From: a virus
IMG/VR virus record: IMGVR_UViG_2511231141_000002
Length of the DNA: 64,000 nucleotides
Strand: one strand, 5' to 3'
Below the pieces are notes generated by a model, which was not told where the DNA came from, did not search any database, and saw only the letters and a list, made by a program, of their open reading frames with translations. Numbering within the stretch: the stretch's first letter is position 1; every line of letters begins with the position of its first letter. This document shows, in pieces, positions 7,937-63,036 of the stretch. The position numbers were made by a program, and so were the translations under genes.

Positions 7937-8212
7937 ATGATAAAGGCCCGATGCTCGCGAAACACCGGACCAAAACAAACCGTCCCCTTGCAGGAGATTG
8001 ACCTCGAACGACACGTAGCAGGGTCTGAACATAACTGCGGAAACTCCGAAAGCATGAGCGAAGCCCAGGCGGACGGCCGGCGGAGGTTGGGAGACCGGAG
8101 CCGGCCGGACGCCTGAGCCCAGCCCATCGCAGAGGAATGACCAACGTCGTGCGATGAGCAACGCGCGCGTCTCTGGAAAACTCCAGAGATGATCTTGACC
8201 TAGGCAAACCTA

Positions 8213-9319: not shown

Positions 9320-12300
9320 TTATTCTAATGCTGGCGGCAATTGACGAATGACCTTTAGCGTCTCCACCGCCACACGCACTGCTCGTTTCACCAAGTCCAC
9401 AATGTACCGAGGATCTTGAGCCGTCTCACGAGCCCAGGCGTTCGGATCATTCACGATCCCGCTTGCTCGATCTCGCTTGATTTGATACTGCTCCACAATC
9501 CATTCAATCGGCGACCGTCCATTCACCTGATAGTGGAACGCTTCTTCCGGAATTCCACGAAGCGTTATCCACTCGTTGACAACCAAGTCTCTCTTGTCCC
9601 TAGCAAACCTCATCTTTTTTACACGGTAACGTTCCCAAGGATCCTCTGGTGCATTTGATGAAATACTCTCTTCCAATGGAAAAGGGTCAACCTTCTCGTA
9701 GCCTATGTGCAACTCCGCAAGCTTGCGACCAGCTTGACTGAATGCCCAGAAATCTGATGCAAACGGAATTCGCGGTAGTTCACGGCGCAAATCCGAAGCA
9801 AAGCGTTCACGATAGTCTGATGCGTGAAGCACGCCATAGACGTAATAGAAAATATCTTCCTTTGTAATGGAGGTGTCCCCATATTGCTCTTGAAATGCTC
9901 TAAGTGTTTCATCCGTGATTGCATAGTCTTTTGGAGCAATCAAATCAAGCGCAACCTGAACCTCCACATCGCCGTCTTCCCCATCATATACGTAAAGCGG
10001 AAAACATTGAGTGGTCCCTACTACATGAAGATCTGGCAATTCATCCGTCACCAAACATGTGAAGTTCCGATTATCTCCGGGTGCTTGTAGAATAATCACC
10101 TTGTTCTCCGCATCTGGACGCGGGAAAAGACGCAGTTGTTGGTAGATCATATCGTTAAAAGCGCGATCAAAATACAACCAGCGCTTAGAGAACGGACGGT
10201 ACAACGCAATTCGAATCGCATCCGGCCGAAACCCATGAATCGCCCCCCCGTGTAGCATCACGCCGCAAGCCACGGCTCCAACTAATTTGGCTGGGGTCGT
10301 TTAGTTGTTCGTTGATACCTCTCCTAACCTGACTGTTGTATACCGCAATCATTCTCTGCATATTATTCGCGACCGTTTCATGAGAAAAATTGTACACCCA
10401 TGCGTCACGACTGGTTGCCACACCCCTTGAACGAATGTTAAATATTCGATGCTCACTTTCTGCTTGCTCTCCACCAAGCGGCATAAGCGACACGAATTCA
10501 TCTGACCGTTGATGAATCCAATCCCCTGCTTCATTAGGTGTGATGCGAGTCCATGGTACACCTTGTACATCTCCGAACGCCTTGACTTTCGCGAGTTTCT
10601 CTTCACGGCTTAGATAGTCACCAATGTCGTGATAGAAAATCTCTGCGGGCCCAACGTGGGAGTCGTCTTTCACCAGCACAACGAGGCATACGGCAGCACG
10701 ACTCCCTTGAGAAAATACATTATCACCCTCCCGTCTCCTGAGTTCGCCTTGCGTTCTAGCATTTCCGCGAAGATTGATTAGATAAATCGCCGCACACTCG
10801 TTTGCGAGTTCCTTGCGCATCCCGTCCATGGCATTGCCGTCGATCCAGCCAGCGTTGGTCACGAACGCGACCACGCCTTGATTCCCCACTCGGTCCATTG
10901 CCCAGCGAATTGCTCGGATATAAGCGTCATAGAGGCTGTTCCTATTTCTTGAAGACGTTTCAGCCGCAAACGTGCTTCGAATTCTCTCATCCAACCGTTC
11001 GTATTGCAGATTTTGGTTAGCGTCGTTTTCATCTCTTTGTCTTGAACGCCAAGGCGGATTTCCCACCACAACCGTAATCGAAGCATCACGTTGAGTACGC
11101 ATCAACTCAGTGTAATCGTCAGCGAAAAACTGCGTACTCCAAGATCCGTGCTCCTCTTGAAGTTGGAATGAGTCAACCCACAGCACTGGCAGATTCCAGC
11201 CGGGGGTCTTCGCCGGTCATTTCTCGAATCGTCCAACGCAGGTTCGTCAGAAGCATGTAATAGGCAAACAATTGAACATCGTTCGCCCAAAACTCTCTGG
11301 CCTGTAACTTCCGAAGTATCGTCTCCTTATCCCAGCGTTGCAACATCAGAGCAGGGAACGTTCCAGTGCCCGCAAATGGGTCAATGATCGTCACGCCTGA
11401 CGAAGCCGTGGTCTTTCCAAAGTGCTTTTGCAACACGACATCGACGCTCTTCAGAAGAAAATTCACGAGCTCAACCGGCGTGTAAACAATCCCCAAACGA
11501 CTCGCTGCTTTCGGAAAGACGGCCTTGAACAGCATTTCAAATAACAGACGCAAGAAATCTTGTCGTTCCTCGGGAGTGCGAATGCCCTGTGCGCGAATAC
11601 GAACACTTACATAAAACTCCTCTAGCACGTGTCGCTCGCGGTCTAAAAAGGCGCGAAAAGCCTCGGTGACTTGCTCGAAGGACCTCGCGACTGGAGTTTC
11701 CGTGAGATCGTCACCGGGAAACAACGACGAAAACACCGGTGCCATGATCCAATGCTGAACAAGGAAATCCTTAGCATCCTCTTCAGAAATGTTGGGATGT
11801 AGAACTTCCCGCAGTGCCGTAACGTAATTCTGAAAAGCAGCCTGAGCTTCCTGATAATGCTCGATCGGAAGTGCACCCAAAATCGTATCAAGTTGTGTCC
11901 GCAGGCGTCGCGCAACTTCCTCCACAGTCGCAGCAAAGACACCAAATACGAACGGTTGTTAGCCGGTGCCACCAAGCGCGTCGTAATCGTCTTTCGGATC
12001 TGTTCTTCAAGCTCTTGTGGTAACCCAAGGTCAAATCTTATTTGAACCGTATTTGACGGTTCGCGGTTGCTACCCTCATGCGGAGACAACAACTCACGAA
12101 TATATACATCCACCGCAGTATCGATGGCGCGAAGCGCGTTAATGATTTGGACAAGAGTACGGAAGTTCTCTTCTTGCGGCAGCAAGAGTGCTTCAATCTG
12201 CTCTTCAGAAATCGGTGCATTAGGTTCCAACCTATCAACATTCAAAACGATCGGGACCAAAATTGTTCCGACCTTGTTGGGGCGATGCGGCGGCTTACGC

Positions 12301-13975
12301 ACAACTCGACCGATCGCTTGGATCACATCTACCCTGCTCTTCGTGGCTCCAAAAACACCACGGCGTCCAAGTCGGGAACATCGATACCTTCGGTGAGCAC
12401 TCTGGCATTCGTAATAAGAACGTGATCTACAGAATTCCCTTCGCGATCCGTCAGTGTTTCAAGACAGCGAAGCAACTTTGCTCGCTCACGCATGGACATC
12501 GTGCCATCCATGTGTGCGACAAAACTGGGCGTGACATTCCGAAGCGTTTCTCAAGCTTGTTCCAAGTATCCACAATCGCTTGCGATTTCGCTCGCGAATT
12601 GACAAAGTAATGAGCCGTTGTAGAGGCGGCTGAATGTCTTCATCCATGAGCGCTCTGGACAAAGCATACGCCCTGACCAAATCTGGAACTTGAGGAGCGT
12701 CTGTTTCCTGCACCCAATCAACGAACATCTGTTGTACTCTTCGCTCGCTAAAGAACATTACGCGGACGCAATAATTTGCCAAATACCCCTCTTCAACGCC
12801 TCTACGAAAGCTATATCTGAAAAATTCGGGTCCGAACGTTTCAAGATTGTCCATGCCATAAGTCCGCAGTCCTTCACGTTCAAGTCGATTTCGATGGGCT
12901 TCGGTAAAGAGGCGTGGCGTAGCTGTCAAATACAATCGACGATGTGCATGAATCCGATCATCGTCATGGAACATCAAAAGTCAGATGGATCTTCCTCTTC
13001 TTCATACGCCACGCCTGTCGTCCGGTGCGCTTCATCCGCAATGGCCACACGAAACTCAGGCAAACCTTGCTGTTGGGCATCTGCTACGACGTGGAGGGAT
13101 TGATAAGTGCTTACCACAACGATGATTGCGTCATCTACGGGTTGAGCGGCACGAACCAACTCTTCATGATTCGTAGTTGGTGGGATAATCAGCGAAATGT
13201 CTCCTGTGTCCTCGTCGCGCCCCACCCCTCGGTCGGAAGTTACGGCAACAAAACGAAGCTGCACCGTCGCGTCGCGCTTCCAAGCTCGTATCGTCTGATT
13301 GACTAAGGCGATTGAAGGTGCGCAGAAGAGAACAAGGTCTCTTGGTTGTGCGAAACGTTCAACAGTTCGAAGCGCCACTAACGTCTTTCCCGTCCCTGGC
13401 GGCATAATGCACTTTCCACGATCGTTTGCTTCCCAGCCAGAGAGAATGGCTGCAACGGCTTCCTCTTGGTATGGACGCAGACTCACCGGCACATGGCGCG
13501 TCATTGCTTCAGACGCTTGCCAGGTGAACTGTTCCCAATCTATATCGGCAGTTTCAAAATCCTCCCCAGTCCAAACAGCGATACCACGTTCTTGACAGCG
13601 GGCTTCCGCCGTGCGGGTAACGCCACCAACTGCAACTACTAAGAACTTCGTGAACGAAAACCGCGGTGACGTTGCGGACGCAACAAACGTCGAAAGTTCA
13701 CGCCAGTCCACCGGGTCACGATGGTCCTTGGATTGGATTGCCCACAAATGGTGCTCAGTGTCTTCAGCCACCAAATCGATACCTTCGTCTTGCTGAGAAC
13801 GCTCTGGTTGCGTGTCCATAATCCAATCTCGATATGTCTTAACCCACACAAACCGGGCACCTGGGTAATGCCCGTCGCGCAGGAACGCAAGCAAAAATCG
13901 TTCGAATAAGCGCCCGCGCTCTTGTGGAGACGACGCCTCATTCTGCAAGTTTTCGTATTGCTCCCAAAACCCCAT
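9320..13975 (-). CDS. Type ISP (LlaGI/LlaBIII-like) restriction-modification enzyme: Mrr nuclease + SF2 helicase + N6-MTase + TRD, split by ~6 apparent frameshifts
   Basis: MPPGTGKT, IADEAH, QAIGRV, DPFAGTG, VGNPPW motifs across consecutive ORFs; most breaks inspected are 1-nt losses in T runs. Confidence 0.88.
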
Positions 13976-14071
13976 CTTGATCACCCGTTCAACACCTTGG
14001 ATTCCAAGCAAATCTTGTGCTTTCTTCGATATTCGAATGCGAACTTCCTTCTTGATTGGCTAACCTCCGCC

Positions 14072-30184: not shown

Positions 30185-30235
30185 CGATTCTCATGACAAA
30201 AGAGGGCCACACGCCCCCTTTGTCATGAGAATCGT
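30185..30235 (-). terminator. Long hairpin terminator downstream of the peptidase
   Basis: ACGATTCTCATGACAAA / TTTGTCATGAGAATCGT inverted repeat. Confidence 0.7.
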
Positions 30236-31689
30236 CAGTCACAACGATGCCAATAATCTGTGAACGAAGAACTAGTAGTGAGACTGCTGGATGCGGACAT
30301 CACATTCCCGCTGCCGTCATACATATAGATTTGATTATTGGCCAATGCACCGATTGGATTCCAATATCCGTATATGCTGTATGTCTGCGCATTTGTCCAC
30401 GGGTTCTGTTGGTAATTCGCCAGCGCGGAAAGTGAACCATTCACCTTCGGTCGCTCATCGATCCACTCGGCCGTCGTTCCATCGTAGTAATTGGAGTTCA
30501 GATTGACCAAAACCGACTGGGACGTGCCAGTGGTATTGTCAGCCACATAAAAATCCGTTTGACCAGTGGAAGATTCATACGAGACGTACACGTAGATGTT
30601 ATCTCCAGGGTTTACTGTGACGTTTGGCAACAAGATTTCATTCACACCTGATCCGTCTTTTCCGAGGTATTCGTACCATGCGTAAGGCGAATTATAGTTC
30701 AATTCGGTTCCTGCCTGTATTAATCCTCCCGAATTTATTCCCCCTAGACCGGCCCACGCTGATTCATAGGCTGGCGAACATGTGGTGGGGCCCATTGTGG
30801 GTTGGGTATAGCTCCCCTGAACAGCTACCCATTCATTGTAACTAGAATAGTTGTAGTAACCAGACCAGTTACTTGCTGCGAATACACCTTCAGAAATATT
30901 CTCGGCAGTCCCTGTATACGGAATGAGACGATGTGAAATATTTGTCATTACCACCTTGGGCGGAAGCATCCGTTTCCAATGACTCATTTCCTGCTCCCAC
31001 TGTTGAAGGTTCTGGGGATCAGAAGGCCGTGGCGGGAACCCATATTCTCGAAGTTGTGCATCCGTTGCCGTCAGCGGATTAAATCCTTTGGGTGGTACCG
31101 GGAATACATTCTTGACACCATTGATGTAATATATGTACTCCTGACCTCCGTCAGGAAGTGTCTGTACCGAGGAAGCAGTCAATGCCTGGGTTGAAATCGT
31201 AGAGACCTTCGAATGCGTTGCCGCTGAAGCTACGGTTGGTTCCGCGTCAGAAGTGTTCTCGGTAATCCCTTTATACGGAACGAGACGATGTGAAATATTA
31301 TACGGAATGAGACGATGCGAAATATTTGTCATTACCACCTTGGGCGGAAGCATCCGTTTCCAATGACTCATTTCCTGCTCCCACTGTTGAAGGTTCTGGG
31401 GATCAGAAGGCCGTGGCGGGAACCCATATTCTCGAAGTTGTGCATCCGTTGCCGTCAGCGGATTAAATCCTTTGGGTGGTACCGGGAATACATTCTTGAC
31501 ACCATTGATGTAATATATGTACTCCTGACCTCCGTCAGGAAGTGTCTGTACCGAGGAAGCAGTCAATGCCTGGGTTGAAATCGTAGAGACCTTCGAATGC
31601 GTTGCCGCTGAAGCTACGGTTGGTTCCGCCATCGGAATTGCTGCGAAGATCGCCAAAAAACCGCAAAGAGAAATTTTACGCACATCCAT
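30235..31689 (-). CDS. Secreted glutamic peptidase family G1 (PepG1-like) with a duplicated prodomain
   Basis: SNWSGY, SAWAGLGG, LIQAGTE, AWYEY, TAEWIDERP motifs; signal peptide. Confidence 0.9.
   Translation of the reverse strand: MDVRKISLCGFLAIFAAIPMAEPTVASAATHSKVSTISTQALTASSVQTLPDGGQEYIYYINGVKNVFPVPPKGFNPLTATDAQLREYGFPPRPSDPQNLQQWEQEMSHWKRMLPPKVVMTNISHRLIPYNISHRLVPYKGITENTSDAEPTVASAATHSKVSTISTQALTASSVQTLPDGGQEYIYYINGVKNVFPVPPKGFNPLTATDAQLREYGFPPRPSDPQNLQQWEQEMSHWKRMLPPKVVMTNISHRLIPYTGTAENISEGVFAASNWSGYYNYSSYNEWVAVQGSYTQPTMGPTTCSPAYESAWAGLGGINSGGLIQAGTELNYNSPYAWYEYLGKDGSGVNEILLPNVTVNPGDNIYVYVSYESSTGQTDFYVADNTTGTSQSVLVNLNSNYYDGTTAEWIDERPKVNGSLSALANYQQNPWTNAQTYSIYGYWNPIGALANNQIYMYDGSGNVMSASSSLTTSSSFTDYWHRCD
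30915..31629. repeat. 331-bp near-identical direct repeat, 384-bp offset
   Basis: 30915-31245 vs 31299-31629; plus a 27-bp mini-duplication at 31272-31298. Confidence 0.92.
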
Positions 31690-32083
31690 CTGTCTCACCC
31701 TCCTTTTTCATGATCAGACATGTATAATAGAGGTTTTTGCAGAATGACTCCTGCGCGTGGCCTACACACAATGTATAGCGTCTAATTATCATGGAGCCCG
31801 CTACGTATAGTCAGTTAAACGCTTAGAAATTGAATTCTTCAAAACCATCAATCGATATTTTTGCGCCGATTCCTGTTCTAACACTGGTGATACTGGAATG
31901 TTATCACTGACTCTTTGTCAAGATCAAGTCCGAGATTGTGTGGCCGTGTCAAGTCGTCGTAGGGGGCCCACTAGGTAGTTTCATTCGACCATTGTAAACC
32001 ACATCATGGAATATCTCGCGCAAGACGTACTTTCTTTACCCAGGATCGGTCCAGTGGCCGGACACCGAACGTATGCAACGAAA

Positions 32084-40678: not shown

Positions 40679-41788
40679 TCAGTCGTTCGTCAGGATCGCC
40701 GAGATCAAATGCAGGTGATCATCGTCATCATGGAAGGCCACCGGTCGACTCCGCCCAGCAAATCGCATCCTCACCGTCGCGCCTTCCATCGCCTGCAACA
40801 TCTCCAACATGAATCGCGCGTTGAGCGTCACCCGCACTTTCTCACCCGAAGATTCGAGAATCGGCACCTCTTCGCGCGCCTGACCGCGATCTCTCGCTCG
40901 CGATGTCATGTGTAGCGCGCCGTCCGACAAATCCATCGTGACCGAGTGATGTTCGTTCTCAGCGAGAATCATCGCACGTTCGACCGCCTGCTCAAGCCGA
41001 TCACGTTCCACCATGCACTCCGCGATAAACTCCGTCGGGATCACCCGAGTCACGTCATGGTACTCCGCTTGATACAAGAGCGCGTACAACCGGACATTCC
41101 CCCACGCGAACATCACGTAGTTGGCGCTCTGGTACACCTGCACCGTCGTGTCTTCTTCGTCTTCTAATAGTCGCAAGAGCTCTGATAGCCCGCGTCGCGG
41201 AACCGTAAACCGAATTGGCAAATCTCGCCCCAACTTCTGCGCCATTCGCGCCAACCTCAACCCGTCTGTCGCTGTCCAGACCAATCGACCGTCTTCGCAC
41301 CGGACATGAACGCCATCTAAAATCCGCCTCACCTGGTCCTGCTTCGCCGCTGCATAGGCCACAGCCTTAATCGCTTGGACGATGGCCTTCGCCGGGATCT
41401 CCACTGGCTCGATGCCCACCATGTCAGGCAACGTCGGAAATTCCACGGCGTCGCGAGCATTCAACTCCATGTGCGTCGTGCCCGAGTCCAAGCTGGCATT
41501 CAAGTGGTATGGAGGGATCGTTGCGATATCAATCGGGCCTTCCGGAAGCCGTCGCACCAAGTCTGACAGCAGTTTCGCCGGGAGCACGATTTCACCCGAA
41601 TCCACGACGTGCGCTTCAAGTGTCATCCGAAGCGCAACCTCCAAGTCATACGCCGTGAGCGTGACTTGACCGCCATTGGCCTCGATCAGCACGCCCTGGA
41701 GTATGGTCTTGGGTGTTCGCGCCGGCGCGATGCGAGCGAGTGCAGCTAGCGCAGGTTGGAGGATTTTTTGCTCGATTAGGCACCGCAT
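40679..41788 (-). CDS. dnaN: DNA polymerase III beta sliding clamp
   Basis: ILQGVLIEA..GQVTLTAYDLE, ATDGLRLA, LNARFMLE. Confidence 0.93.
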   Translation of the reverse strand: MRCLIEQKILQPALAALARIAPARTPKTILQGVLIEANGGQVTLTAYDLEVALRMTLEAHVVDSGEIVLPAKLLSDLVRRLPEGPIDIATIPPYHLNASLDSGTTHMELNARDAVEFPTLPDMVGIEPVEIPAKAIVQAIKAVAYAAAKQDQVRRILDGVHVRCEDGRLVWTATDGLRLARMAQKLGRDLPIRFTVPRRGLSELLRLLEDEEDTTVQVYQSANYVMFAWGNVRLYALLYQAEYHDVTRVIPTEFIAECMVERDRLEQAVERAMILAENEHHSVTMDLSDGALHMTSRARDRGQAREEVPILESSGEKVRVTLNARFMLEMLQAMEGATVRMRFAGRSRPVAFHDDDDHLHLISAILTND

Positions 41789-42084
41789 ATTGTCTCGGCC
41801 TCCGATGTCGAATTTTGCACGATTGCCTGACGCAATGCCTCGCGATCCTTCGGCGTGACTGCCTGCGGAACAACCAGGTAGATGGTGTGCACCACCGACA
41901 CCTTGCAGAACCTCGGCACTGCCATGAGCAACCGCGTCTCGTCGCATGGCTTGTTCGGATCGTAGGCCATCCGAAACCCGCGGCCCTCGTAGACCGGCGG
42001 GTACTCGCCTTCCTCCACGACGCCCAGACACAAGCCGCGCTTCATGCGAACTCGACCCTGCTCCCAAACAGCAAACTCAAACAT
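41776..42084 (-). CDS. Hypothetical protein
   Basis: RBS inside the hairpin of the start-associated motif. Confidence 0.6.
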   Translation of the reverse strand: MFEFAVWEQGRVRMKRGLCLGVVEEGEYPPVYEGRGFRMAYDPNKPCDETRLLMAVPRFCKVSVVHTIYLVVPQAVTPKDREALRQAIVQNSTSEAETICGA

Positions 42085-49865: not shown

Positions 49866-50004
49866 TCCCAGTTCTCGGAATCAAGGCAGAAGGCGGAACA
49901 TGGAAACGAATCAACAGAACACCAATTCCAATGAAAGGTTTTCACTATTCTCTTTCCTTCCTTTTTTCTTTTCTAAGAGAGAAGGAAGTAAGGAGAATAT
50001 AGGA

Positions 50005-50385
50005 GTGATCCGAGGGTGATCCGAGCGTGATCCTAGGATGATCCTAGAGTGATCCGAGTGGTGTTAGTCTAGAATCCCTTGTGCTGTAAGGGATTCTGGA
50101 GTATGATCCGAGTGATCCTAGCCAGATTTACGGTTGAGAAGAAATGAGTGCTTCGATTCGTTTACAAATAGTTACTGTCGTCGAGTCATGGGTTAATATG
50201 GATAAAGTTGCTTGTAAATGGTATCGAAACGAATCGAAGCAGCAATTTTATAGAGATGCGTTTTCGACCCCGGATCACTCGGATCACACCCCGAGATCCC
50301 TTGTGGCACAAGGCTTCTCGGGATTTTGCAGATAGGAGCAATCTAGGAGCAGCCCCGGATCATAGCGCCTGTTGCTCGGATCACG
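50005..50385. repeat. Putative replication origin: RTGATCCKAG iterons
   Basis: Five copies at 11-bp period (50005-50058), two more at 50103-50121, inverted copies at 50270-50385, AT-rich spacer, two flanking hairpins. Confidence 0.75.
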
Positions 50386-50387
50386 TC

Positions 50388-50621
50388 TCATGATGCATCC
50401 TCCAATTTGGTGGCTTGGGCTAGGCGCTTAAGGGCTTGGGTGATCTCCACCTTCATCGGCAGCAGCCACTTCTCTCGGAATTCAAGCCACTCTTCTTCGC
50501 TGTCGAACCCGAGCCTCGGGTCGATGATCGGCACGATGTGGTACATACCGTTTTCCCATCTCAATGTGGCTCCGCCACATCGGGAAGCATTTAGCGTCCA
50601 ACCCAGCGTGTCATCACTCAC
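50388..50621 (-). CDS. Hypothetical protein (frame stays open upstream through WDPRPDL)
   Basis: ORF track; true start uncertain. Confidence 0.55.
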   Translation of the reverse strand: MSDDTLGWTLNASRCGGATLRWENGMYHIVPIIDPRLGFDSEEEWLEFREKWLLPMKVEITQALKRLAQATKLEDAS

Positions 50622-50793
50622 GACCTGAGTCAGTAGGACTTCCCACAGTCTGTGGTCGCTGACGAGATCCGGTCGCGGGTCCCAACGCCAATCATGTGCG
50701 CATGAAGTGATGCTCTCACCACCTGTTATTCGTCGAAATGCGTGTGAATCCTACCACTAAATCTTCCAGCCAGTACGACACATTGTGATGTCC

Positions 50794-50919
50794 GCTGTTT
50801 TCACCCGCTACCACGGCGGGCAGCGCACAGCGGACGAAGCGGCCATGCCTTGCCATAGCTTACCTTACCACACCACGCCTCGCCTGGCCGAACCGCGCCC
50901 AGCCTAGCCTCGCCATGCC
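50794..50919 (-). ncRNA. GGY-NN pentamer RNA C (16 units + structured 3' tail)
   Basis: 15/16 units GGY; NN = AT GA TA TG GC TC CA GA GT GT AA AA AT AA AT CG. Confidence 0.85.
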
Positions 50920-51382
50920 ACGTAAGGAGTTAGGGCAGCGTGAGTTCTCACCCGATGGCGTCCCGACAGGCGCGAACGTGTCTGAAGCGCGGAACACTCG
51001 CTTTTGCCGTGTCCCACGATTTTGCGCCTGCCGAACGCCACGGTCGGGCGGTGCCTCCGCCGCCCGGCGCAGCGCACGAACTGCTTGGGACAACAGCGCG
51101 CATCAGGCGCGTAATGATGCAGCTCGCGCGCCGGGCACGGCGGCGGAGAAAAGGGTTCTGGGATTATTCAGTTGCCAAGGTCCGCTCTGACGCGGCACAT
51201 CGCCTCATGAGTGTTCATATCGTGCTGTCGTGACGGCGATACGACCCGCGCCGGGAACGCGCGCTCGGCGTCCCTGGTGTCATTGGTGTGGGCGTCGTCA
51301 GACACCCGAGAGGGTTCGCCCCTCCACTCTGTACCGAAGACCTTCGGTACAGGGCGCAAGGGCGAGGGCCTTGCGCAAGCCA

Positions 51383-52009
51383 TTAAAACGGCTTCCAGTA
51401 TGGTTTGATGTCAGGGAACCGCGTCCTGCCGTGTTGGCCGCTGTTCATCAAATCCGCCAAACTCGGACCATCGGTCGGAATCCCAATAGCGTCATACCCC
51501 GCCATGAGATTCGCGCTGACGATGAGCAGGCGCTCAATCATCAGGTCAGACAGGCGATCCTGCAGACGGTGAGCGGCATCGATCAGAAGCTTCGCCTGCT
51601 CTGTCCTCACGTTAAGCTCCATGACTTTCAGTTGTTTATCCGCTACCTCGCACTGCTCGCGACGTTCAGGCGTCTCGTACTTGCCGGTCTTGCGGATGGA
51701 GGGCAAGACTTCGTGGGTGACCCAGCGCTTAAAGGCCTTCGCCTCAGGCTTGCGGCTGCCCAAGATCAGTGAATACAAACCGGCTTCGTTGATGATGGTC
51801 ATGTTCTGTTGACCGCCGGGGGTGTGAATTGAACTCACACCCTTTTCATCCTCGTCGATCCGCTCCAAGGCTTTACGATCCAACTCAAGAATCACAAGCA
51901 CGTCAGCAGCCACCCACCACGGTTCATCGTTAATCATGACGACTCGGATTCGATGGCCTTTGAACATCCATTCCATCGTTTGGTTTCCGCTCTTGTCCAC
52001 AGGTTGCAT
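51383..52009 (-). CDS. BRO-N domain antirepressor
   Basis: RIRVVMINDEPWWVAADV...INEAGLYSLI..SRKPEAKAFKRWVTHEVLPSIRKTG. Confidence 0.93.
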   Translation of the reverse strand: MQPVDKSGNQTMEWMFKGHRIRVVMINDEPWWVAADVLVILELDRKALERIDEDEKGVSSIHTPGGQQNMTIINEAGLYSLILGSRKPEAKAFKRWVTHEVLPSIRKTGKYETPERREQCEVADKQLKVMELNVRTEQAKLLIDAAHRLQDRLSDLMIERLLIVSANLMAGYDAIGIPTDGPSLADLMNSGQHGRTRFPDIKPYWKPF

Positions 52010-52096
52010 GGTATCCCTCCTGAAGATCTTGCGATTAGAAGTTGCCATTTCGGTCTGGGCCGAAAAGATTCGACCCATGGCGCAAGGGCGAAACGC

Positions 52097-52303
52097 TCAA
52101 CGCACCAACCTCAGTCGTTCTACGGCTCTGTAGATCCCCCATCCCGCCAGAATGAACGGATATAACGCTATGAGCACAAGCGCCGCGAAGAACACTCTGA
52201 CAAACCACATCAAATCTTCGTTGTCCCAGAGTTTGATCAGAACAAGAGCCAAGACGGCACCTAATAGATCTCCTCCAATAACCGCCAGCAGATATTCCGC
52301 CAT
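52097..52303 (-). CDS. Small 2-TM membrane protein
   Basis: Hydrophobic ORF. Confidence 0.6.
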   Translation of the reverse strand: MAEYLLAVIGGDLLGAVLALVLIKLWDNEDLMWFVRVFFAALVLIALYPFILAGWGIYRAVERLRLVR

Positions 52304-52319
52304 AGATGACCACCAAATC

Positions 52320-52655
52320 CTACACCGGAAGCTGCAACCCCCGACACCCGATCACCCTGCCCTCTTCGTCCAGGATGGCCTCCGCAGGGCTAAACACATC
52401 CGTTCGCCCCGCCCTCGCCGCAGCCTGCGCCACCAGCGTCGAGGCGACGTACACCGTGTCCTCCTCCGGATCCGGCAACTCGACAACTTCACCAAACTCC
52501 GTGCTGAAGACCGGGATACCATCAAGCACATCAATTTGCTTCGATGTGCTCGCCACCCGTGCCACGATGCCAGAAGGCGGGATTCGTGCGATGGTAGTTC
52601 CATCCGAGCCGATGAATGTGAGTTCGTGTGGTGTCAAATTGACAATCCGATGCAT
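52320..52655 (-). CDS. NLTPH-family protein (possible Crn4-like ring nuclease)
   Basis: NLTPH...VARV...LP.P...YVASTLVA...R.D...GRVIGC; AAGGAGG RBS; function from recall only. Confidence 0.5.
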   Translation of the reverse strand: MHRIVNLTPHELTFIGSDGTTIARIPPSGIVARVASTSKQIDVLDGIPVFSTEFGEVVELPDPEEDTVYVASTLVAQAAARAGRTDVFSPAEAILDEEGRVIGCRGLQLPV

Positions 52656-52742
52656 GCTATTGTCCTCCTTGGTCCGATTTCTGTCGCATCCTCAAATTCC
52701 TAATCAACCTCGTAGGAGCCTTCTTTTCGCGCCCCTCCGCGC

Positions 52743-52827
52743 GGCGCTCAAAGTACGGACTCGAACCGCAAGTCTCCACGGGGTGATCAGTCCCGTGTCA
52801 ACCGTGCCGCCTGCACCTTTGAGCGCC
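52743..52827 (-). ncRNA. tRNA-like cloverleaf element (not a canonical tRNA)
   Basis: 11-bp acceptor-like stem, GTGC/GCAC arm, CACGGG/CCCGTG arm, TGCGG-TTCGAGT-CCGTA T-arm. Confidence 0.55.
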
Positions 52828-52908
52828 CGGCGCAGGGGCGCGCCCTGCGCGCTCTCTAGGCGTTGACAAAGGGAGGTTCACCCACTGTAACAGTGGGCTA
52901 TGGTGCCG

Positions 52909-53140
52909 GCTGTTTTCACCCGCTACCACGGCGGGCAGCGCACAACCGGCGAAGCGACCATGCCTTGCCATAGCCTGCCGAACCTGACCACGCCTCAGCC
53001 CGCCTCACCAAGCCATTCCAGACCCTACCCCACCGAGGCTTGCCGTGCCACACCCGGCCATGAACGTTGGAGCGGTTCTTCGCCGCCCCGACCCGCCTCC
53101 GAGACACCTCGGAGACACGTCGCGGAAGCGAAGCTTCCGC
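52909..53140 (-). ncRNA. GGY-NN pentamer RNA B (leader + 21 units at 52955-53059 + tail)
   Basis: 17/21 units GGY; NN = CG GT AC AA TC GG AG CT AT TT GA GG GA GT CA TC AG AT AA AT CG. Confidence 0.87.
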
Positions 53141-53149
53141 TCAAGGCAC

Positions 53150-53770
53150 TCACTCCACGTCGTCCTCCAACACCTTATACTCCACCACCTGAAATCTTCC
53201 AAACATTGGCCTATAATCTCCAATTCCAACCAACCTTCCCGCTTGAACCAGTAGGTCATAGAGCAGTTCCGGACTGATATATTCTGGAAGAAGACACTCA
53301 ACTTGAAATTCAACTTCCCACCCTGGTAACAGCGCTGGACGAACCCTGGTAACTCCCGCTCGTTGAACTAAAACACGGCGTCTATCAAGAAAGTCTGGTT
53401 GTGCTTTTCCCATTGAAGCCAGCCACGGCGTCACGATAAATGCAGCTTTAGATAAATCTGACATTGACTTTCTTGGCGAGCGAGGATCCTGCTTGAACTT
53501 CGCCGCGTTCACGAGCGCCTGATGCAGGTAGACACCGGGAATGCAGATTTCGCCGTCTTCGTTCCGGTAAAGGTACGCTTCCCAGTTGTCCGTCTTCTTC
53601 ATCGCGCTGCCCTTGGCGGCTTGCGCCTTGGCTTCAACATCCTCACAGTCCCATCGATGGAATAATATAGGCGTCGATCCCTTCAGTCGCACAGCCGCCC
53701 GATACGGCGTCGCGAAACGAACATTGTCTCCGTCAACCGTGTAGCCTATAATGGTATTGGCAACCGACAT
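53150..53770 (-). CDS. RAMP/Cas7-like RNA-binding protein (Vipr-like)
   Basis: VRLKGSTPILFH first strand, CIPGVYLHQAL (cf. RAMP YIPGSSLKG), C-terminal G-rich loop GRLVGIGDYRPMFGRF; flanked by GGY-NN tracts. Confidence 0.8.
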   Translation of the reverse strand: MSVANTIIGYTVDGDNVRFATPYRAAVRLKGSTPILFHRWDCEDVEAKAQAAKGSAMKKTDNWEAYLYRNEDGEICIPGVYLHQALVNAAKFKQDPRSPRKSMSDLSKAAFIVTPWLASMGKAQPDFLDRRRVLVQRAGVTRVRPALLPGWEVEFQVECLLPEYISPELLYDLLVQAGRLVGIGDYRPMFGRFQVVEYKVLEDDVE

Positions 53771-53831
53771 TCGTCTTTCACCCTTTCGTTTAGGATGGAG
53801 CGGCGCGAACGCCGCTCTTTTGTTGTTCCCG

Positions 53832-54030
53832 GCTAATTTCAGACACTACCTCGGTGTCCAGCGCTCAACCGGGGAAGCGGCCATGCCACGCTCTACCACG
53901 CCGAACCATGCCACACCATGCCCCGCCTCGCCTGGCCAGGCCACGGCAAGCCATACTTTTGGAGCGACCTTCGCCGCCCCACGCCACCCCCGAAGGATTC
54001 GGAAGTGGTGTGCGGAGGCGAACCCTCCGC
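53832..54030 (-). ncRNA. GGY-NN pentamer RNA A (leader + 15 units at 53878-53952 + tail)
   Basis: 13/15 units GGY; NN = TT GT CT CA GA GG AT GT AT TC GT AG GT AT CG. Confidence 0.87.
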
Positions 54031-54033
54031 TGT

Positions 54034-54861
54034 TCATGCTGTTTGTCCGGCTGTTTCGCCTTGTTGTGTCTCTTCTGTTGACGAACCATTGGAGTTCTCC
54101 ACGTTGACTTGCAGATAATCTTCAATCCCCACCGTGATCGATTTGTGCCGTGCTTCAAGCTCTTTTCCTATCGACACGACGCGGTACTTTTCCGCTGGAG
54201 TCAATTCCCGAAGTATCTTCGGAGGTTGCAATTGACTCCATACGAACGCGCCATTTCGTTTTGTCTCCAGCGAAAGTTCGATTTCATAACTGCTCACCAG
54301 TTGACCACGAAAGCGAAGCGCGCTGACAAATTGATCCCACGCCCGATGACTCGAAGGTGGCAGTCCGAGAATCGCAGGCACTTGCGAATTTTCTTCCAGA
54401 AGATAGATTCGTCGAACGGTTTTGCATGCTTTCCCTCTTCCACCATTCGGATCACTACCAAACTGATCAAACGGACAACCCTGACACTTTCGATATGAAA
54501 TGAGTCCATCGTCCGCAACGTAGCGTCCGATCTTGCCATCGTGACTCGTGCAGAGCGGCGGCGCACTTTCACCTTCGTTCTGAGGCGCAAACAGCACTCG
54601 ACTTGTGTGAAAAAACGGGATTCTGACTCTTAATTTCTGAATAATTTCTCCAGTTGCCTCGTTTTGGAAGGCGGCCGCTTGCGCAACGATCCGATATCTT
54701 ACGGGAAGAATTTCGGCGTTCTCTTCCAGTTGCGCGGCATCTTGCATGGTCTCAGCGTATTGTTCGAGTGAGATTCCTTGAGCTTCGAGCTCCTGCGCCT
54801 GTTCGACCGTCAACCCGAGCTTCTGAAGCAGATTCGGATCGTACTGTGCCAGTGTGGTCAT
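54034..54861 (-). CDS. Phage protein, putative Zn-binding ssDNA-binding/annealing factor
   Basis: C.S.DG...CQGCPFDQFGS...GKACK..RRIY...LPPSS; follows the exonuclease. Confidence 0.6.
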   Translation of the reverse strand: MTTLAQYDPNLLQKLGLTVEQAQELEAQGISLEQYAETMQDAAQLEENAEILPVRYRIVAQAAAFQNEATGEIIQKLRVRIPFFHTSRVLFAPQNEGESAPPLCTSHDGKIGRYVADDGLISYRKCQGCPFDQFGSDPNGGRGKACKTVRRIYLLEENSQVPAILGLPPSSHRAWDQFVSALRFRGQLVSSYEIELSLETKRNGAFVWSQLQPPKILRELTPAEKYRVVSIGKELEARHKSITVGIEDYLQVNVENSNGSSTEETQQGETAGQTA

Positions 54862-61070: not shown

Positions 61071-61547
61071 ATGAATGAATTGTTTGACATCCTTAATAGA
61101 GAGGGCATATTTATCTCCTACAAAAGATTAGAACATTTGGCAAACGGAAATTTGCTAGGATTCTATTTCTATGATGCCGAAAGAGAACAGCCATTTATTG
61201 TTCTCGAAAAGAAAATAGAACGTTCAGCAATCCTACATCGATGCGTATTAGCAGAAGAGATTGGACACTACTTCACTGTACCGAAGAGTAAGTTCATTCT
61301 TCCCTATACTTCGTACAGAGATAGACTATTTCTCAGTATTGATGAAAGAAAAGCCTTGACATGGGCCGCTAAGTTTCTTATTAGTTTGAGGGATTTGAAC
61401 GCAGCCCTACGTGCAGGGTGCGAAACCCTGGATGATTTTGCGGATTACTTGAATGTCACTCATGAAATCGCAAAAATCCGTTTACAACTAGGTGACGCCC
61501 GTGAATGCCTTTCCAGTTGGATTAGATCACGTAGCGATTTATCTTAG
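61071..61547 (+). CDS. ImmA/IrrE-family metallopeptidase (anti-repressor)
   Basis: RCVLAEEIGHYF, E.KA..WAAKFLI. Confidence 0.92.
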   Translation: MNELFDILNREGIFISYKRLEHLANGNLLGFYFYDAEREQPFIVLEKKIERSAILHRCVLAEEIGHYFTVPKSKFILPYTSYRDRLFLSIDERKALTWAAKFLISLRDLNAALRAGCETLDDFADYLNVTHEIAKIRLQLGDARECLSSWIRSRSDLS

Positions 61548-63036
61548 GAAATCTCGTGCAGATTTAGAAGCTGAGGCTCGTGGCGAAGGAGAAACTTTGA
61601 CTAAACATCGTCGAGCCCTTCTTGAACTAGCCAAACAGTATCAATATAGCATTGACCACATTTATGAAGAAATTGTCTCTGGAGAACTTATTGTCGATCG
61701 GCCGGAAGTACAGAGACTGCTACATGCTGTACGAGAGGGAAAGTACAGCGCTGTATTAGTTATGGATATTGATCGACTTGGACGTGGAAACCAGATTGAC
61801 CAAGGCATTATTCAACAAGCCTTCAAGCAATCCGGAACACTCATTATAACTCCTAGAAAAGTTTACAATCTCGAAGATGAGATAGACGAGGAATTCTCCG
61901 AGTTTGAGCAGTTCATGGCCCGCCGTGAACTCAAAATCATTACTCGTCGTATGCAACGCGGAAGAAAGCTTTCGGCAAAAGAAGGGAAGTCGATTACCCC
62001 TTATGTTCCTTTTGGTTACAAGAGGGATGAAAACCTCAAATTATATCCAGACCCCGAAACTGCACCGATCGTCCGTCAAATTTTTGAGTGGAGTGCCGAA
62101 GGATTAGGCATCATCAAAATTGCAAAGAAACTGAACGAGATGGGGGTTCCAGCTCCACGCTCGAGTGGTTGGCAGAGAACTACCGTTCAGCATATTTTGA
62201 AGAACGAAGTCTATCTTGGACGGATTGTTTGGGATAAGAAGAGGGATGTAAAAACACCTCAGGGGAAATACCGTTCTATCAAACGTCCGCGTGAGGAATG
62301 GATTGTTCACGAGAATGCTCACGAGCCTATTATCTCTCAAGAATTGTGGGATAGAGTTGTGCAAGTCCGTAAGATGAATGATCATCGAACAAAGGATAAC
62401 TATGACTTGAAAAACCCCTTTGCAGGGATTTTGAAGTGCAAACAATGTGGACGAGTTATGAAGAGGCAACCTCGCCCAAATCGTAAGGGCGATACTTTTC
62501 AGTGCTATACGGTTGGTTGTCCGACGCGAGAGGTCCTCATTTCCAAACTTGAAGATCGCGTTTTGAAATCAATTGAAGAGTTTGTTCAGTCATATGCTGC
62601 TCAATCTAGCGTTAAGAAACGTGCTGACAATCGACAAAAGCGACTGGAGACTCTACAGAGACATAAAAGATCAATTCAATCAAAAATCAGCAAACTTGAG
62701 ACGCAAAAGAACAGACTGTTTGATTTCCTTGAGCAAGGTGTTTACGACATCCAAACTTTTCTTGAAAGAAGTAAATTGGTGGGTGAACAGCTCGATCAAG
62801 CAAGAGAGGAACTCAGAACTTGTGAGCAAGCTATTGAACGTGAAACGGTTCAACAACAGCATGAGGAAGAATTGATTCCAGCGATCAGCGAGGCTATCGA
62901 GATGTATAGGTCCGCTTCCAATGCAGAAATTAAAAATATGGCGTTGAAATCAGTTATAAAGGAAATACATTATTACAGACCTCGTTCGTGGCCAAGATCC
63001 AAGGAATTTGAAATAGATATATATTTCCGCATCTGA
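61501..63036 (+). CDS. Large serine recombinase (integrase, SpoIVCA-like)
   Basis: YLRKS, DIDRLGRG, recombinase domain, CKQC/CYTVGC Zn ribbon, coiled coil. Confidence 0.96.
   Translation: MNAFPVGLDHVAIYLRKSRADLEAEARGEGETLTKHRRALLELAKQYQYSIDHIYEEIVSGELIVDRPEVQRLLHAVREGKYSAVLVMDIDRLGRGNQIDQGIIQQAFKQSGTLIITPRKVYNLEDEIDEEFSEFEQFMARRELKIITRRMQRGRKLSAKEGKSITPYVPFGYKRDENLKLYPDPETAPIVRQIFEWSAEGLGIIKIAKKLNEMGVPAPRSSGWQRTTVQHILKNEVYLGRIVWDKKRDVKTPQGKYRSIKRPREEWIVHENAHEPIISQELWDRVVQVRKMNDHRTKDNYDLKNPFAGILKCKQCGRVMKRQPRPNRKGDTFQCYTVGCPTREVLISKLEDRVLKSIEEFVQSYAAQSSVKKRADNRQKRLETLQRHKRSIQSKISKLETQKNRLFDFLEQGVYDIQTFLERSKLVGEQLDQAREELRTCEQAIERETVQQQHEEELIPAISEAIEMYRSASNAEIKNMALKSVIKEIHYYRPRSWPRSKEFEIDIYFRI

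What the first reader, a model, noticed from the sequence alone, without database searches (positions are those of the whole stretch)
50794..54030. RAMP/Cas7-like gene flanked by three GGY-NN pentamer RNAs: candidate RNA-guided (VIPR-type) system
Seen in sequence: three minus-strand non-coding tracts keep an unbroken 5-nt register of a constant triplet plus a variable dinucleotide. A = 15 units (53878-53952), B = 21 units (52955-53059), C = 16 units (50840-50919). 45 of 52 triplets are GGY; the exceptions are GCY, GGA or AGC. A lies directly upstream and B directly downstream of a 206-aa ORF carrying RAMP-like motifs (first strand VRLKGSTPILFH, CIPGVYLHQAL, terminal G-rich loop GIGDYRPMFGRF). 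No cas1/cas2, CRISPR repeats or dedicated effector nuclease are nearby. Inference: the protein oligomerises along each RNA, holds GGY and presents NN for gapped base-pairing with DNA. This matches my recollection of recently reported phage VIPR systems (vrRNA with alternating GGY/NN, every third target base skipped, used against competing phages); I cannot verify that citation here.
Basis: partly seen in the sequence, partly recalled or inferred. Interest (0 to 1): 0.96.

Follow-up and report, generated by a model that had tools for sequence, protein, structure and literature searches.

The report
VIPR RNA-guided silencing locus, Alicyclobacillus
This is a real member of the recently described VIPR family (a small Cas7-like protein plus guide RNAs made of GGY-NN pentamers), so the kind of system is not new, but it appears to sit on a conjugative element and to aim at rival mobile DNA, not at phages.

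Summary

**Tracts.** The three minus-strand GGY-NN tracts are exactly as described (45 of 52 triplets are GGY). No such tract appears in shuffled sequence. The 3.1-Mb genome has only five, and all flank the two copies of the 206-aa gene.

**Protein.** It is a Vipr.
- Its only PDB sequence match is 'SUSP1 Vipr protein' (profile E 6.6e-19).
- The MSA-based AlphaFold model (pLDDT 92.9) has a Cas7/Csm3 fold (Z 12.4).
- Its five best AlphaFold-DB clusters are the five founding Vipr entries of the discovery preprint.
- The residues that read GGY in SUSP1 Vipr are conserved.

**Family and RNA.** 75 of 82 homologous loci carry same-strand GGY-NN tracts. Each tract here ends in a conserved 3' tail of two helices (99% paired, 11 of 15 pairs compensatory).

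**Targets.** Only the published rule of skipping every third target base gives significant matches.
- Guides B and A hit, in frame, one small gene of a 5.6-kb integrative element in the same chromosome.
- Guides of sister elements hit this element's 275-aa gene.

**What differs.** There is no conserved vap gene. The carrier looks like a conjugative element, not a prophage.

Expression and binding are untested. Verdict: a new member of a known kind.

The parts
53150..53770 (-). vipr gene: 206-aa minimal Cas7-like RAMP (Vipr homolog)
   Evidence: phmmer against PDB gives one hit, 36pp_D 'SUSP1 Vipr protein', E 1.6e-7. The profile gives E 6.6e-19. hhalign gives probability 99.1. The AF2 model has pLDDT 92.9. 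Top fold hits are Cas7/Csm3/Cmr4, Z up to 12.4. Top AFDB cluster is X1U2U4, E 1.1e-18.
53828..53952 (-). vrRNA A (predicted): 14-15 GGY-NN units (53878-53952) plus structured 3' tail (about 53828-53879)
   Evidence: Tail helices shown by covariation. The guide matches 20/28 NN in frame in the 85-aa ORF of the 352-kb element. A near-identical guide occurs in A. fructus locus L004.
52905..53059 (-). vrRNA B (predicted): 20-21 GGY-NN units (52955-53059) plus structured 3' tail (about 52905-52956)
   Evidence: The guide matches 30/40 NN (28/32 over units 1-16) in the same 85-aa ORF. None of 60 unit-order shuffles reaches this. An identical copy lies beside the second vipr gene.
50790..50919 (-). 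vrRNA C (predicted): 15-16 GGY-NN units (50840-50919) plus structured 3' tail (about 50790-50841). It lies 2.2 kb from vipr, beyond three small genes.
   Evidence: No target was found.
53961..53980 (-). Conserved 5' stem-loop (GGGGCG...CGCTCC) 8 nt before the first unit of vrRNA A. Its role is unknown (processing site or promoter-linked).
   Evidence: Read from the sequence. The same element precedes vrRNA B, the sister element's vrRNA, and four of six vrRNAs in L003/L004.
53069..53089 (-). Conserved 5' stem-loop before vrRNA B
54289..54342 (-). Predicted target site in this element's 275-aa gene for a vrRNA of the A. sendaiensis sister element (L003, second vrRNA)
   Evidence: 26/36 NN match, 24/28 over the first 14 units. 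The match is in frame with the skipped base at the codon's third position. It is the best hit in the whole genome, and the second best is the paralogous site.
54508..54552 (-). Predicted target site in the same 275-aa gene for a vrRNA of the A. fructus sister element (L004, first vrRNA)
   Evidence: 17/18 NN over units 3-11 of the 15-unit reading (21/30); the trimmed 13-unit reading scores 20/26. In frame and the best hit in the whole genome.

Best explanation
The locus is a VIPR (Viral Interference Programmable Repeat) system. It has one vipr gene (53150-53770, minus strand) and three vrRNA genes on the same strand: A just upstream, B just downstream, and C 2.2 kb further on.

Each vrRNA has 14-20 GGY-NN pentamers followed by a conserved 3' tail of about 50 nt. 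The tail folds into a 9-bp helix that encloses a 6-bp hairpin.

By homology with the solved SUSP1 complex, one Vipr protomer binds each pentamer. It buries GGY using His38, Arg144, Asp185, Tyr186 and Arg187, and it presents NN. The filament then pairs with double-stranded DNA that reads NN-x-NN-x and blocks transcription without cutting.

Guides B and A point to the first small gene of the Rep_trans/FtsK-like operon of a 5.6-kb integrative element at 352 kb in the same chromosome. Guides of sister elements in other Alicyclobacillus species point to early genes of this element. The system therefore most likely serves competition between mobile elements.

The carrier is most likely a large integrative conjugative element present in two diverged copies.

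Shown here: sequence anatomy, homology, fold, tail covariation, linkage of tracts to the gene family, and in silico targets. Inferred: transcription, RNP assembly, silencing, and the ecological role.
For: - **Tracts.** They are real and non-random. The genome holds five, all beside the two vipr copies.
- **Protein homology.** The only PDB sequence match is SUSP1 Vipr, E 1.6e-7 for the single sequence and 6.6e-19 for the profile over the full length. hhalign gives probability 99.1.
- **Fold.** The model has pLDDT 92.9 and a Cas7/Csm3/Cmr4 fold, Foldseek E 3e-7 and VIA Z 12.4.
- **Founding entries.** AFDB ranks 1-5 are X1U2U4, A0A661D0E2, A0A0F9A1L0, A0A1F4YLN4 and A0A2D6XG06. These are the five founding Vipr hits named in the discovery paper.
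- **GGY-reading residues.** SUSP1 H17, R138, D177, W178 and R179 align to H38, R144, D185, Y186 and R187. All of these except Tyr186 are invariant or nearly invariant in one of the two family alignments.
- **Family linkage.** 75 of 82 homolog loci carry GGY-NN tracts, 201 on the gene's strand against 3 on the other. Only 1 of 84 shuffled loci has one.
- **Tail.** 99.3% of cells are paired and 11 of 15 pairs show compensatory changes. Slid controls give 29-48%.
- **Targets.** Guide B scores 30/40 in the genome, against a maximum of 27 in 60 shuffles. Guide A's best hit lies 186 bp away in the same ORF, strand and frame, with the skipped base at the wobble position.
- **Skip rule.** 6 of 10 Alicyclobacillus guides exceed all controls under the 1-nt skip. 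None does under skip 0, skip 2 or the reversed guide.
- **Target element.** It carries a tyrosine integrase, an XRE repressor, Rep_trans and FtsK/SpoIIIE.
Against: - No RNA-seq run exists for this organism, so transcription, ends and processing of the three RNAs are unknown.
- No sigma-70-like promoter was found on the minus strand of the locus.
- The full-length NN matches of guides B (75%) and A (71%) are below the 80% threshold used in the paper. B passes at 88% only if the semi-constant last units are set aside, which is my own assumption.
- Guide A's score alone is at chance level.
- Guide C has no target.
- No near-perfect target of guide B exists in 64 genomes of the order.
- No conserved vap gene is present, whereas SUSP1 needs vap1 in natural infection.
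- SUSP1 residues K33, E71 and M72 are not conserved in the alignment.
Confidence: 0.88

Rival explanations
1. It is a VIPR system, but it works as host-benefiting anti-phage immunity (as proposed for VIPR types III and V) and not in competition between mobile elements. The matches to integrated elements would be incidental.
For: Guide C has no target in any sequence searched, so a phage target remains possible. The paper reports defence-type VIPRs in cellular genomes.
Against: Six of ten guides in this clade hit integrated elements or sister elements, in frame and above all controls. No nuclease or helicase vap of the type III-V kind is linked to the gene across 83 loci. The locus lies inside a mobile element, next to its replication and recombination genes.
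Confidence: 0.08
2. The carrier is a prophage or phage-like element whose structural genes belong to families I did not test, so this is an ordinary proviral VIPR. The core VIPR reading would be unchanged.
For: The neighbours are phage-like: a Bro-N/Ant antirepressor, a PD-(D/E)XK exonuclease, a D5-type primase, a helicase, a repressor and an integrase. All 80 distant homolog loci came from a viral contig collection. Most published VIPRs are proviral.
Against: The whole genome has no match to Phage_capsid, Phage_portal, TerL_ATPase or Terminase_6N. A VirB4-like AAA_10 ATPase occurs exactly twice, each 15-19 kb left of the collinear part of one of the two paralogous elements. A TrwB-type coupling-protein domain, a weak CD3337/EF1877 membrane-protein match, ParA, ParB-nuclease/methyltransferases and an ArdC-like anti-restriction gene lie alongside.
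Confidence: 0.3
3. The locus is an inactive relic: the gene and tracts persist but are no longer expressed or functional.
For: There is no expression data and no recognisable promoter. Several GGY positions are degenerate: 7 of 52, including 4 of 21 in B.
Against: The ORF is intact in both copies, at 91% identity. All GGY-reading residues are kept. Tail helices are maintained by compensatory changes. Guides differ between copies and species while keeping significant targets. The paper notes that internal degeneracy is frequent in working vrRNAs.
Confidence: 0.06
4. The pentamer tracts act at the DNA level (G-rich iterons, G-quadruplex or recombination sites) or are short coding repeats, and their adjacency to a RAMP-like gene is unrelated to RNA guidance.
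For: GG every 5 nt could form G-quadruplexes. Short ORFs overlap the tracts.
Against: A 5-nt period is incompatible with a reading frame. The tracts show a 201:3 strand bias relative to the gene. RNA-type covariation occurs in the attached tail. The NN letters match codon positions 1-2 of other elements' genes only under the 1-nt skip. The protein is homologous to a protein solved in complex with such RNA.
Confidence: 0.02

Closest known systems
SUSP1 / Pseudomonas fulva VIPR systems (type II VIPR; bioRxiv 10.64898/2026.04.26.720920 and .720927)
   Same: - Homologous Vipr protein (29% identity, hhalign probability 99.1).
- Conserved G-loop GxGD(W/Y)RPxFGRF, and the His/Arg/Asp/aromatic/Arg set that reads GGY.
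- vrRNAs on both sides of vipr, on its strand.
- GGY-NN repeats followed by an invariant structured 3' tail.
- Targets in competing mobile elements, with the skipped base at codon position 3.
- No cas genes or CRISPR array.
   Different: - No vap1-like conserved neighbour.
- Longer guides: 14-20 units against 9-16.
- The tail is two nested helices; a pseudoknot is neither shown nor excluded.
- A conserved 5' stem-loop precedes two of the three vrRNAs.
- The host is a Gram-positive thermoacidophile genus.
- The carrier looks conjugative, not viral.
- The targets are an integrative element and sister elements, not a phage satellite or prophage.
- The VIPR type (I-VII) could not be assigned without the authors' tree.
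Class 1 CRISPR backbone RAMPs (Csm3/Cmr4, type VII Cas7, type IV Csf2)
   Same: RRM-based Cas7 fold (Z 10-12.4, Foldseek E down to 3e-7), with a glycine-rich loop and a thumb. They share the logic of one protomer per fixed RNA step with periodic base flipping.
   Different: Sequence identity is 9-17%. The system has no crRNA repeat-spacer array, no Cas5, Cas6, Cas10 or Cas11 partners and no adaptation genes. The step is 5 nt with three bases hidden, against 6 nt with one flipped. Guides are hard-wired genes, not acquired spacers.
Type IV CRISPR-Cas on plasmids (from my own knowledge of the literature, not checked here)
   Same: A nuclease-free, RNA-guided, DNA-binding system carried by conjugative elements and aimed at competing plasmids or mobile elements. 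It acts by transcriptional interference.
   Different: Type IV uses crRNAs from CRISPR arrays, a multi-protein Csf complex and often a DinG helicase. This locus has a single protein and pentamer guides.

Membership tests
VIPR system | Protein homologous to the Vipr family (founding entries X1U2U4 and others; SUSP1 Vipr) | tested here: met
   PDB phmmer gives one hit, SUSP1 Vipr, E 1.6e-7. The profile gives E 6.6e-19. hhalign gives probability 99.1 and E 8e-19. AFDB ranks 1-5 are the five founding Vipr accessions listed in the paper.
VIPR system | Minimal RAMP architecture: a single RRM core, a glycine-rich loop and a thumb, with no second RRM | tested here: met
   A 206-aa single-domain model, pLDDT 92.9. 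It aligns over residues 18-206 to Csm3, Cmr4 and Cas7. The G-loop G182-F193 is nearly invariant in the family. The thumb Arg144-Pro145 aligns to SUSP1 R138-P139.
VIPR system | Residues that read G1, G2 and Y3 of the repeat (SUSP1 H17, R138, D177, W178, R179) | tested here: met
   They align to H38, R144, D185, Y186 (aromatic for Trp) and R187. K33, E71 and M72 are not conserved in the alignment.
VIPR system | vrRNA genes: at least 4 tandem YNNGG (GGY-NN) units beside vipr, on its strand | tested here: met
   Three tracts of 15, 21 and 16 units. Genome-wide, tracts occur only beside vipr copies. 75 of 82 homolog loci have them.
VIPR system | Invariant, structured 3' tail after the repeat tract (a pseudoknot in the SUSP1 clade) | tested here: met
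   The conserved tail has two helices supported by covariation. The pseudoknot itself is inconclusive: a possible CGC/GCG stem never varies, so it cannot be tested.
VIPR system | Targets obey the 1-nt skip (NN-x) rule, with the skip base at the wobble position, in competing mobile elements | tested here: met
   In silico only. Under skip 1, 6 of 10 guides exceed the skip-0, skip-2, reversed and shuffled controls. The full-length match of B is 75%, or 88% over units 1-16.
VIPR system | Accessory vap gene in the operon (typical, with six known kinds) | tested here: not met
   No neighbour of this locus recurs beside vipr in 83 loci. The only recurrent real neighbour elsewhere is a RusA-like resolvase, in 35 loci, and it is absent beside vipr here; only a weak partial RusA-type match lies about 11 kb away, inside the protein at window 40679-42067. 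The paper calls vap 'typical', not universal.
VIPR system | vrRNAs are transcribed and co-purify with Vipr; binding silences the target | not testable with these tools
   No RNA run holds the locus.
VIPR system | Carried by a virus or provirus (about 71% of published systems) | tested here: inconclusive
   Neighbours are phage-like. However, no capsid, portal or terminase family is found in the genome, and VirB4-like and coupling-protein-like genes lie in both paralogous elements. The paper also reports chromosomal (25.5%) and plasmid (3.8%) loci.
CRISPR-Cas (class 1) | CRISPR repeat-spacer array and further cas genes (cas5/6/10/11, cas1/2) | tested here: not met
   No array appears in the tandem-repeat scan. 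No Cas model hits the protein or its neighbours, apart from a chance-level Cas4_II match (E 0.004) to the exonuclease. Rfam finds no match to any family, CRISPR direct repeats included.

The most novel reading that the evidence does not exclude
A conjugative element, not a phage, uses VIPR as an RNA-guided exclusion system. Its hard-wired guides silence the relaxase/coupling-protein operon of a small mobilizable element that may parasitise its transfer machinery. The two share a 96-bp inverted-repeat stretch next to the target, which could be a copied oriT. Sister conjugative elements in other Alicyclobacillus species aim their guides at each other's early genes. This would extend VIPR from phage-satellite conflict to conflict between a conjugative element (ICE) and a mobilizable element (IME), and between ICEs. 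It would also show the system working without any vap gene.
Probability: 0.4. Interest if true: 0.6.

Novelty: new member of a known kind. Interest (0 to 1): 0.4.

Why it matters
VIPR was described only in 2026, and the experiments so far are on E. coli and Pseudomonas phage systems. This locus is an independent check of its rules from sequence alone, in a distant Gram-positive lineage. The GGY-NN guides, the structured tail, the conserved GGY-reading residues and the rule of skipping every third base all hold.

The locus also offers a compact natural test case. It has one protein, three guides and no vap gene. A candidate resident target sits in the same chromosome, and sister elements cross-target each other. 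If the carrier is indeed conjugative, this points to VIPR use outside phage biology.

Pfam, NCBIfam and PADLOC have no model for the protein, and the homologs whose source names are listed are all called hypothetical. More than 5,000 homologs at 90% clustering and about 1,800 clusters at 50% are therefore probably annotated the same way.

Tried and rejected
- **Single-sequence AlphaFold** gave a useless model (pLDDT 35). I refolded with a 70-sequence alignment.
- **Rfam**, at a permissive threshold, found nothing real in 50500-54300. No hammerhead or known RNA family matched.
- **Promoter and terminator scan** found no minus-strand promoter. The one terminator-like hairpin reads on the plus strand.
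- **The search for related loci on genome contigs** with the single protein reached only two close relatives. The broad alignment A1 had no stretch conserved enough for pattern search, so I used A2 instead.
- **Guide B**, at 3 or fewer mismatches over 17 units, had no match in 64 genomes of the order.
- **DNA of the 85-aa target gene** has no full-length homolog in 45 genomes of the family.
- **Guide C**, as an exact 10-unit pattern, had no match in viral contigs or metagenome contigs.
- **The paper's held supplement** has no entry for Alicyclobacillus, so the type could not be assigned.
- **RNA runs:** none holds the locus.
- **The 111-aa ORF as a vap candidate** was rejected. It is absent from the sister element, from L004 and from all 80 viral loci.
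- **PD-(D/E)XK nuclease, 275-aa protein and Bro-N/Ant as vap candidates** were rejected. They are kept only in the closest relatives.


Full report
**1. Observation**

The minus strand of 53878-53952, 52955-53059 and 50840-50919 is an unbroken series of 15, 21 and 16 pentamers. Of the 52 leading triplets, 45 are GGY.

A register scan (at least 7 of 10 GGY) finds only these three places in the 64-kb window and none in 50 shuffles. The window is G000:C1:2317664-2381663 of a complete 3.12-Mb genome. The closest homologs carry Alicyclobacillus names.

Genome-wide there are five strong tracts. Three are in the window. Two flank a second copy of the 206-aa gene at 1801284-1801901, which is 91% identical. 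The downstream tract of that copy is identical to B, and the upstream one is a different guide.

**2. The protein**

Pfam, NCBIfam and PADLOC give nothing. PHROGs gives only an unnamed family, phrog_4652. The family is large: 5,497 clusters at 90% identity and 1,799 at 50% reach E of 0.001 or better.

Several results tie the protein to Vipr:
- Against all PDB sequences the only match is 36pp_D, 'SUSP1 Vipr protein'. E is 1.6e-7 for the single sequence and 6.6e-19 for a 70-member profile over the full length.
- hhalign of the profile against the SUSP1 gene product, fetched from KT454805, gives probability 99.1 over 164 columns at 29% identity.
- The alignment-based AlphaFold model is confident (pLDDT 92.9, pTM 0.85).
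- All top Foldseek hits in the PDB are Cas7-type subunits: type VII Cas7, Csm3, Cmr4 and gRAMP, E down to 3e-7.
- VIA-align puts Csm3 (6ae2_B) first at Z 12.4, rmsd 2.9 over 150 residues.
- In AlphaFold-DB clusters, ranks 1-5 are X1U2U4 (E 1.1e-18, TM 0.76/0.88), A0A661D0E2, A0A0F9A1L0, A0A1F4YLN4 and A0A2D6XG06. These are the five entries the discovery paper names as the founding Vipr hits, and X1U2U4 was its PSI-BLAST seed.

The cryo-EM paper assigns reading of G1, G2 and Y3 to H17, D177, R138, W178 and R179. These align to H38, D185, R144, Y186 and R187 here. All of these except Tyr186 are invariant or nearly invariant in one of the two family alignments. K33, E71 and M72 are not conserved in the alignment.

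**3. The RNAs**

Each tract runs into a conserved tail that starts with CGCTTC. I aligned ten tails: three from the window, one from the sister element, and three each from A. sendaiensis (L003) and A. fructus (L004). A 9-bp helix enclosing a 6-bp hairpin with a CNNGGUA loop is 99.3% paired. Eleven of 15 pairs show changes on both sides. No shuffle of 500 reaches the observed values, and slid registers give 29-48%.

This matches the published two-part vrRNA plan of a variable repeat tract followed by an invariant structured tail. A pseudoknot, as in SUSP1, is possible but untestable because the candidate stem never varies.

The last one or two units (GGCAA GGCAT) are semi-constant among vrRNAs that have different guides. 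My inference is that they belong to the handle.

A conserved stem-loop (GGGGCG...CGCTCC) lies 8-12 nt upstream of A, of B and of most relatives' vrRNAs. It is absent before C and before vrRNAs that come second in an array. Its role is unknown. No minus-strand sigma-70-like promoter was found, and no RNA-seq run holds the locus. Transcription is therefore inferred, not shown.

**4. Linkage in relatives**

In 82 homolog loci (80 from IMG/VR, 2 from Alicyclobacillus), 75 carry GGY-NN tracts at 6 or more of 8 units. Of these tracts, 201 lie on the gene's strand and 3 on the other, nearly all within about 1 kb of the gene. Only 1 of 84 shuffled loci has a tract.

**5. Accessory genes**

None of this locus's neighbours recurs beside vipr outside the closest relatives. 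The neighbours are a 111-aa ORF, a 68-aa membrane ORF, Bro-N/Ant, the 275-aa protein, the PD-(D/E)XK exonuclease and a primase. Unsupervised clustering finds only a RusA-like resolvase (35 loci) and replication genes as recurrent neighbours elsewhere. The system here appears to be vipr plus vrRNAs without a vap gene. In SUSP1, vap1 is needed in natural infection, so this is a real difference.

**6. Targets**

I used the published rule, in which each GGY corresponds to one skipped target base.

*Guide B.* It scores 30/40 at G000:352491 (-). The next best hit is 26, and 60 unit-order shuffles reach at most 27.

*Guide A.* Its score of 20/28 is at chance level by itself. But the hit lies 186 bp away, in the same ORF, strand and reading frame. 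In both matches the skipped base is the codon's third position, as the paper reports for natural targets. Over units 1-16, B matches 28/32.

*The target gene.* The 85-aa ORF is the first gene of an operon that also holds a Rep_trans-like protein and an FtsK/SpoIIIE ATPase. A divergent XRE repressor and a tyrosine integrase lie beside it. Together they form a 5.6-kb integrative element.

*Cross-targeting between sister elements:*
- The sister element's upstream guide matches 28/34 at L003:327, starting at the ATG of a small ORF of the A. sendaiensis element. Its own elements score 18-19/34.
- The second L003 guide has its two best genome-wide hits in the 275-aa gene of this window (54289-54342, 26/36) and in the paralogous gene of the sister element.
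- The first L004 guide has its best genome-wide hit in the same gene (54508-54552). Both L003 and L004 guides score lower on their own alleles.

*Controls.* Across ten guides and 39 kb of such sequence, six guides score 13-22 under skip 1. Skip 0, skip 2 and reversed guides give 12 or less, and shuffles give 14 or less.

*No result.* Guide C has no target. No near-perfect B target exists in 64 genomes of the order.

**7. Carrier**

The locus lies among early-type genes (exonuclease, primase, helicase), next to a repressor and a serine integrase at 61492-63036. The window is collinear with a second element at 1.706-1.808 Mb.

Evidence against a prophage: the genome has no match to Phage_capsid, Phage_portal, TerL_ATPase or Terminase_6N.

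Evidence for a conjugative element:
- A VirB4-like AAA_10 ATPase occurs exactly twice, each 15-19 kb left of the collinear part of one of the two elements.
- A protein with a TrwB-type coupling domain and a ParA lie nearby, and a large protein there gives a weak match to a CD3337/EF1877 mobilome membrane family.
- ParB-nuclease/methyltransferases and an ArdC-like gene lie in the window's left part.

I read the carrier as an integrative conjugative element, with confidence about 0.65. The VIPR papers do not use the words 'conjugative' or 'integrative'.

A 96-bp inverted-repeat stretch, 92% identical, is shared between the small element and both large elements. In the small element it lies next to the B target and upstream of the Rep_trans gene. 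In the window it lies at about 8044-8139. It could be a shared oriT, which would make the small element a mobilizable parasite. This is a lead only.

**8. Comparison and verdict**

The locus meets every sequence-level defining feature of VIPR that I could test. The exceptions are the presence of a vap gene (not met) and a viral carrier (inconclusive). It is not a CRISPR-Cas system, since it has no array and no other cas genes. The VIPR type could not be assigned.

The kind of system is already described, so this is a new member of a known kind. What is worth following up:
- the conjugative carrier;
- the architecture without a vap gene;
- the long guides;
- the resident partial target;
- the cross-targeting between sister elements.

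Noticed in passing
G000:C1:349600-355200 (outside the window; locus L086:6600-12200): A compact 5.6-kb integrative element: FtsK/SpoIIIE ATPase, Rep_trans-like protein, 85-aa ORF, XRE repressor and tyrosine integrase. Its 85-aa ORF carries the best genome-wide matches of guides A and B.
   Followed up: partly
window 8044-8139; G000:C1:352392-352486; G000:C1:about 1718331-1718410: A 96-bp GC-rich stretch with long inverted repeats is 92% identical between the small integrative element and the large element of the window. In the small element it lies just upstream of the Rep_trans gene. A 76-bp version is in the sister element. It may be a shared oriT or regulatory site. No relaxase gene was recognised beside it in the window.
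   Followed up: partly
window 600-59918 versus G000:C1:1705815-1807542: Two collinear, diverged copies (71-95% identity in blocks) of a large integrated element. Each has a VirB4-like ATPase to its left, and each has its own vipr and vrRNAs. vrRNA B is identical in both, while the upstream guides differ.
   Followed up: partly
window 52320-52655 (-): The 111-aa ORF just downstream of vrRNA B matches the PADLOC model Unk_01, 'unknown small protein, sometimes fused to CARF' (E 3.6e-23), and phrog_30542. It is not conserved beside vipr in other loci. Atlas look-alikes are viral hypothetical proteins.
   Followed up: partly
L004:3705-3789 versus window 53878-53952: The A. fructus element carries almost the same guide as vrRNA A (three NN dinucleotides differ, each by one letter). 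There it sits downstream of vipr and is joined to a B-type tail. Guide and tail modules therefore seem to be reshuffled between positions.
   Followed up: no
window 53797-53818: A strong 9-bp hairpin lies between the vrRNA A tail and the vipr start codon. It is followed by a T-run only on the plus strand, so it is terminator-like for antisense transcription. It is conserved in L003, L004 and the sister element.
   Followed up: no
window 50003-50063: An 11-nt unit (GTGATCCGAGG) is repeated 5.3 times just upstream of the 1043-aa primase gene. These could be iterons or an operator array.
   Followed up: no
window 30915-31629: A 384-bp tandem duplication (1.9 copies, 99% identical) lies inside the 487-aa ORF 30235-31698, which has no PHROG match.
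   Followed up: no
window 10185-14011 (-): Pieces of a Type ISP restriction-modification enzyme lie in three consecutive ORFs plus a short unassigned one: helicase part, coupler domain, and Eco57I methylase with Type_ISP_C. The gene is possibly split or frameshifted.
   Followed up: no
G000:C1:2292303-2293694 (-): An IS605 OrfB/TnpB-type gene (OrfB_IS605 plus Cas12f1-like TNB domain) is inserted near the VirB4-like gene of the large element.
   Followed up: no
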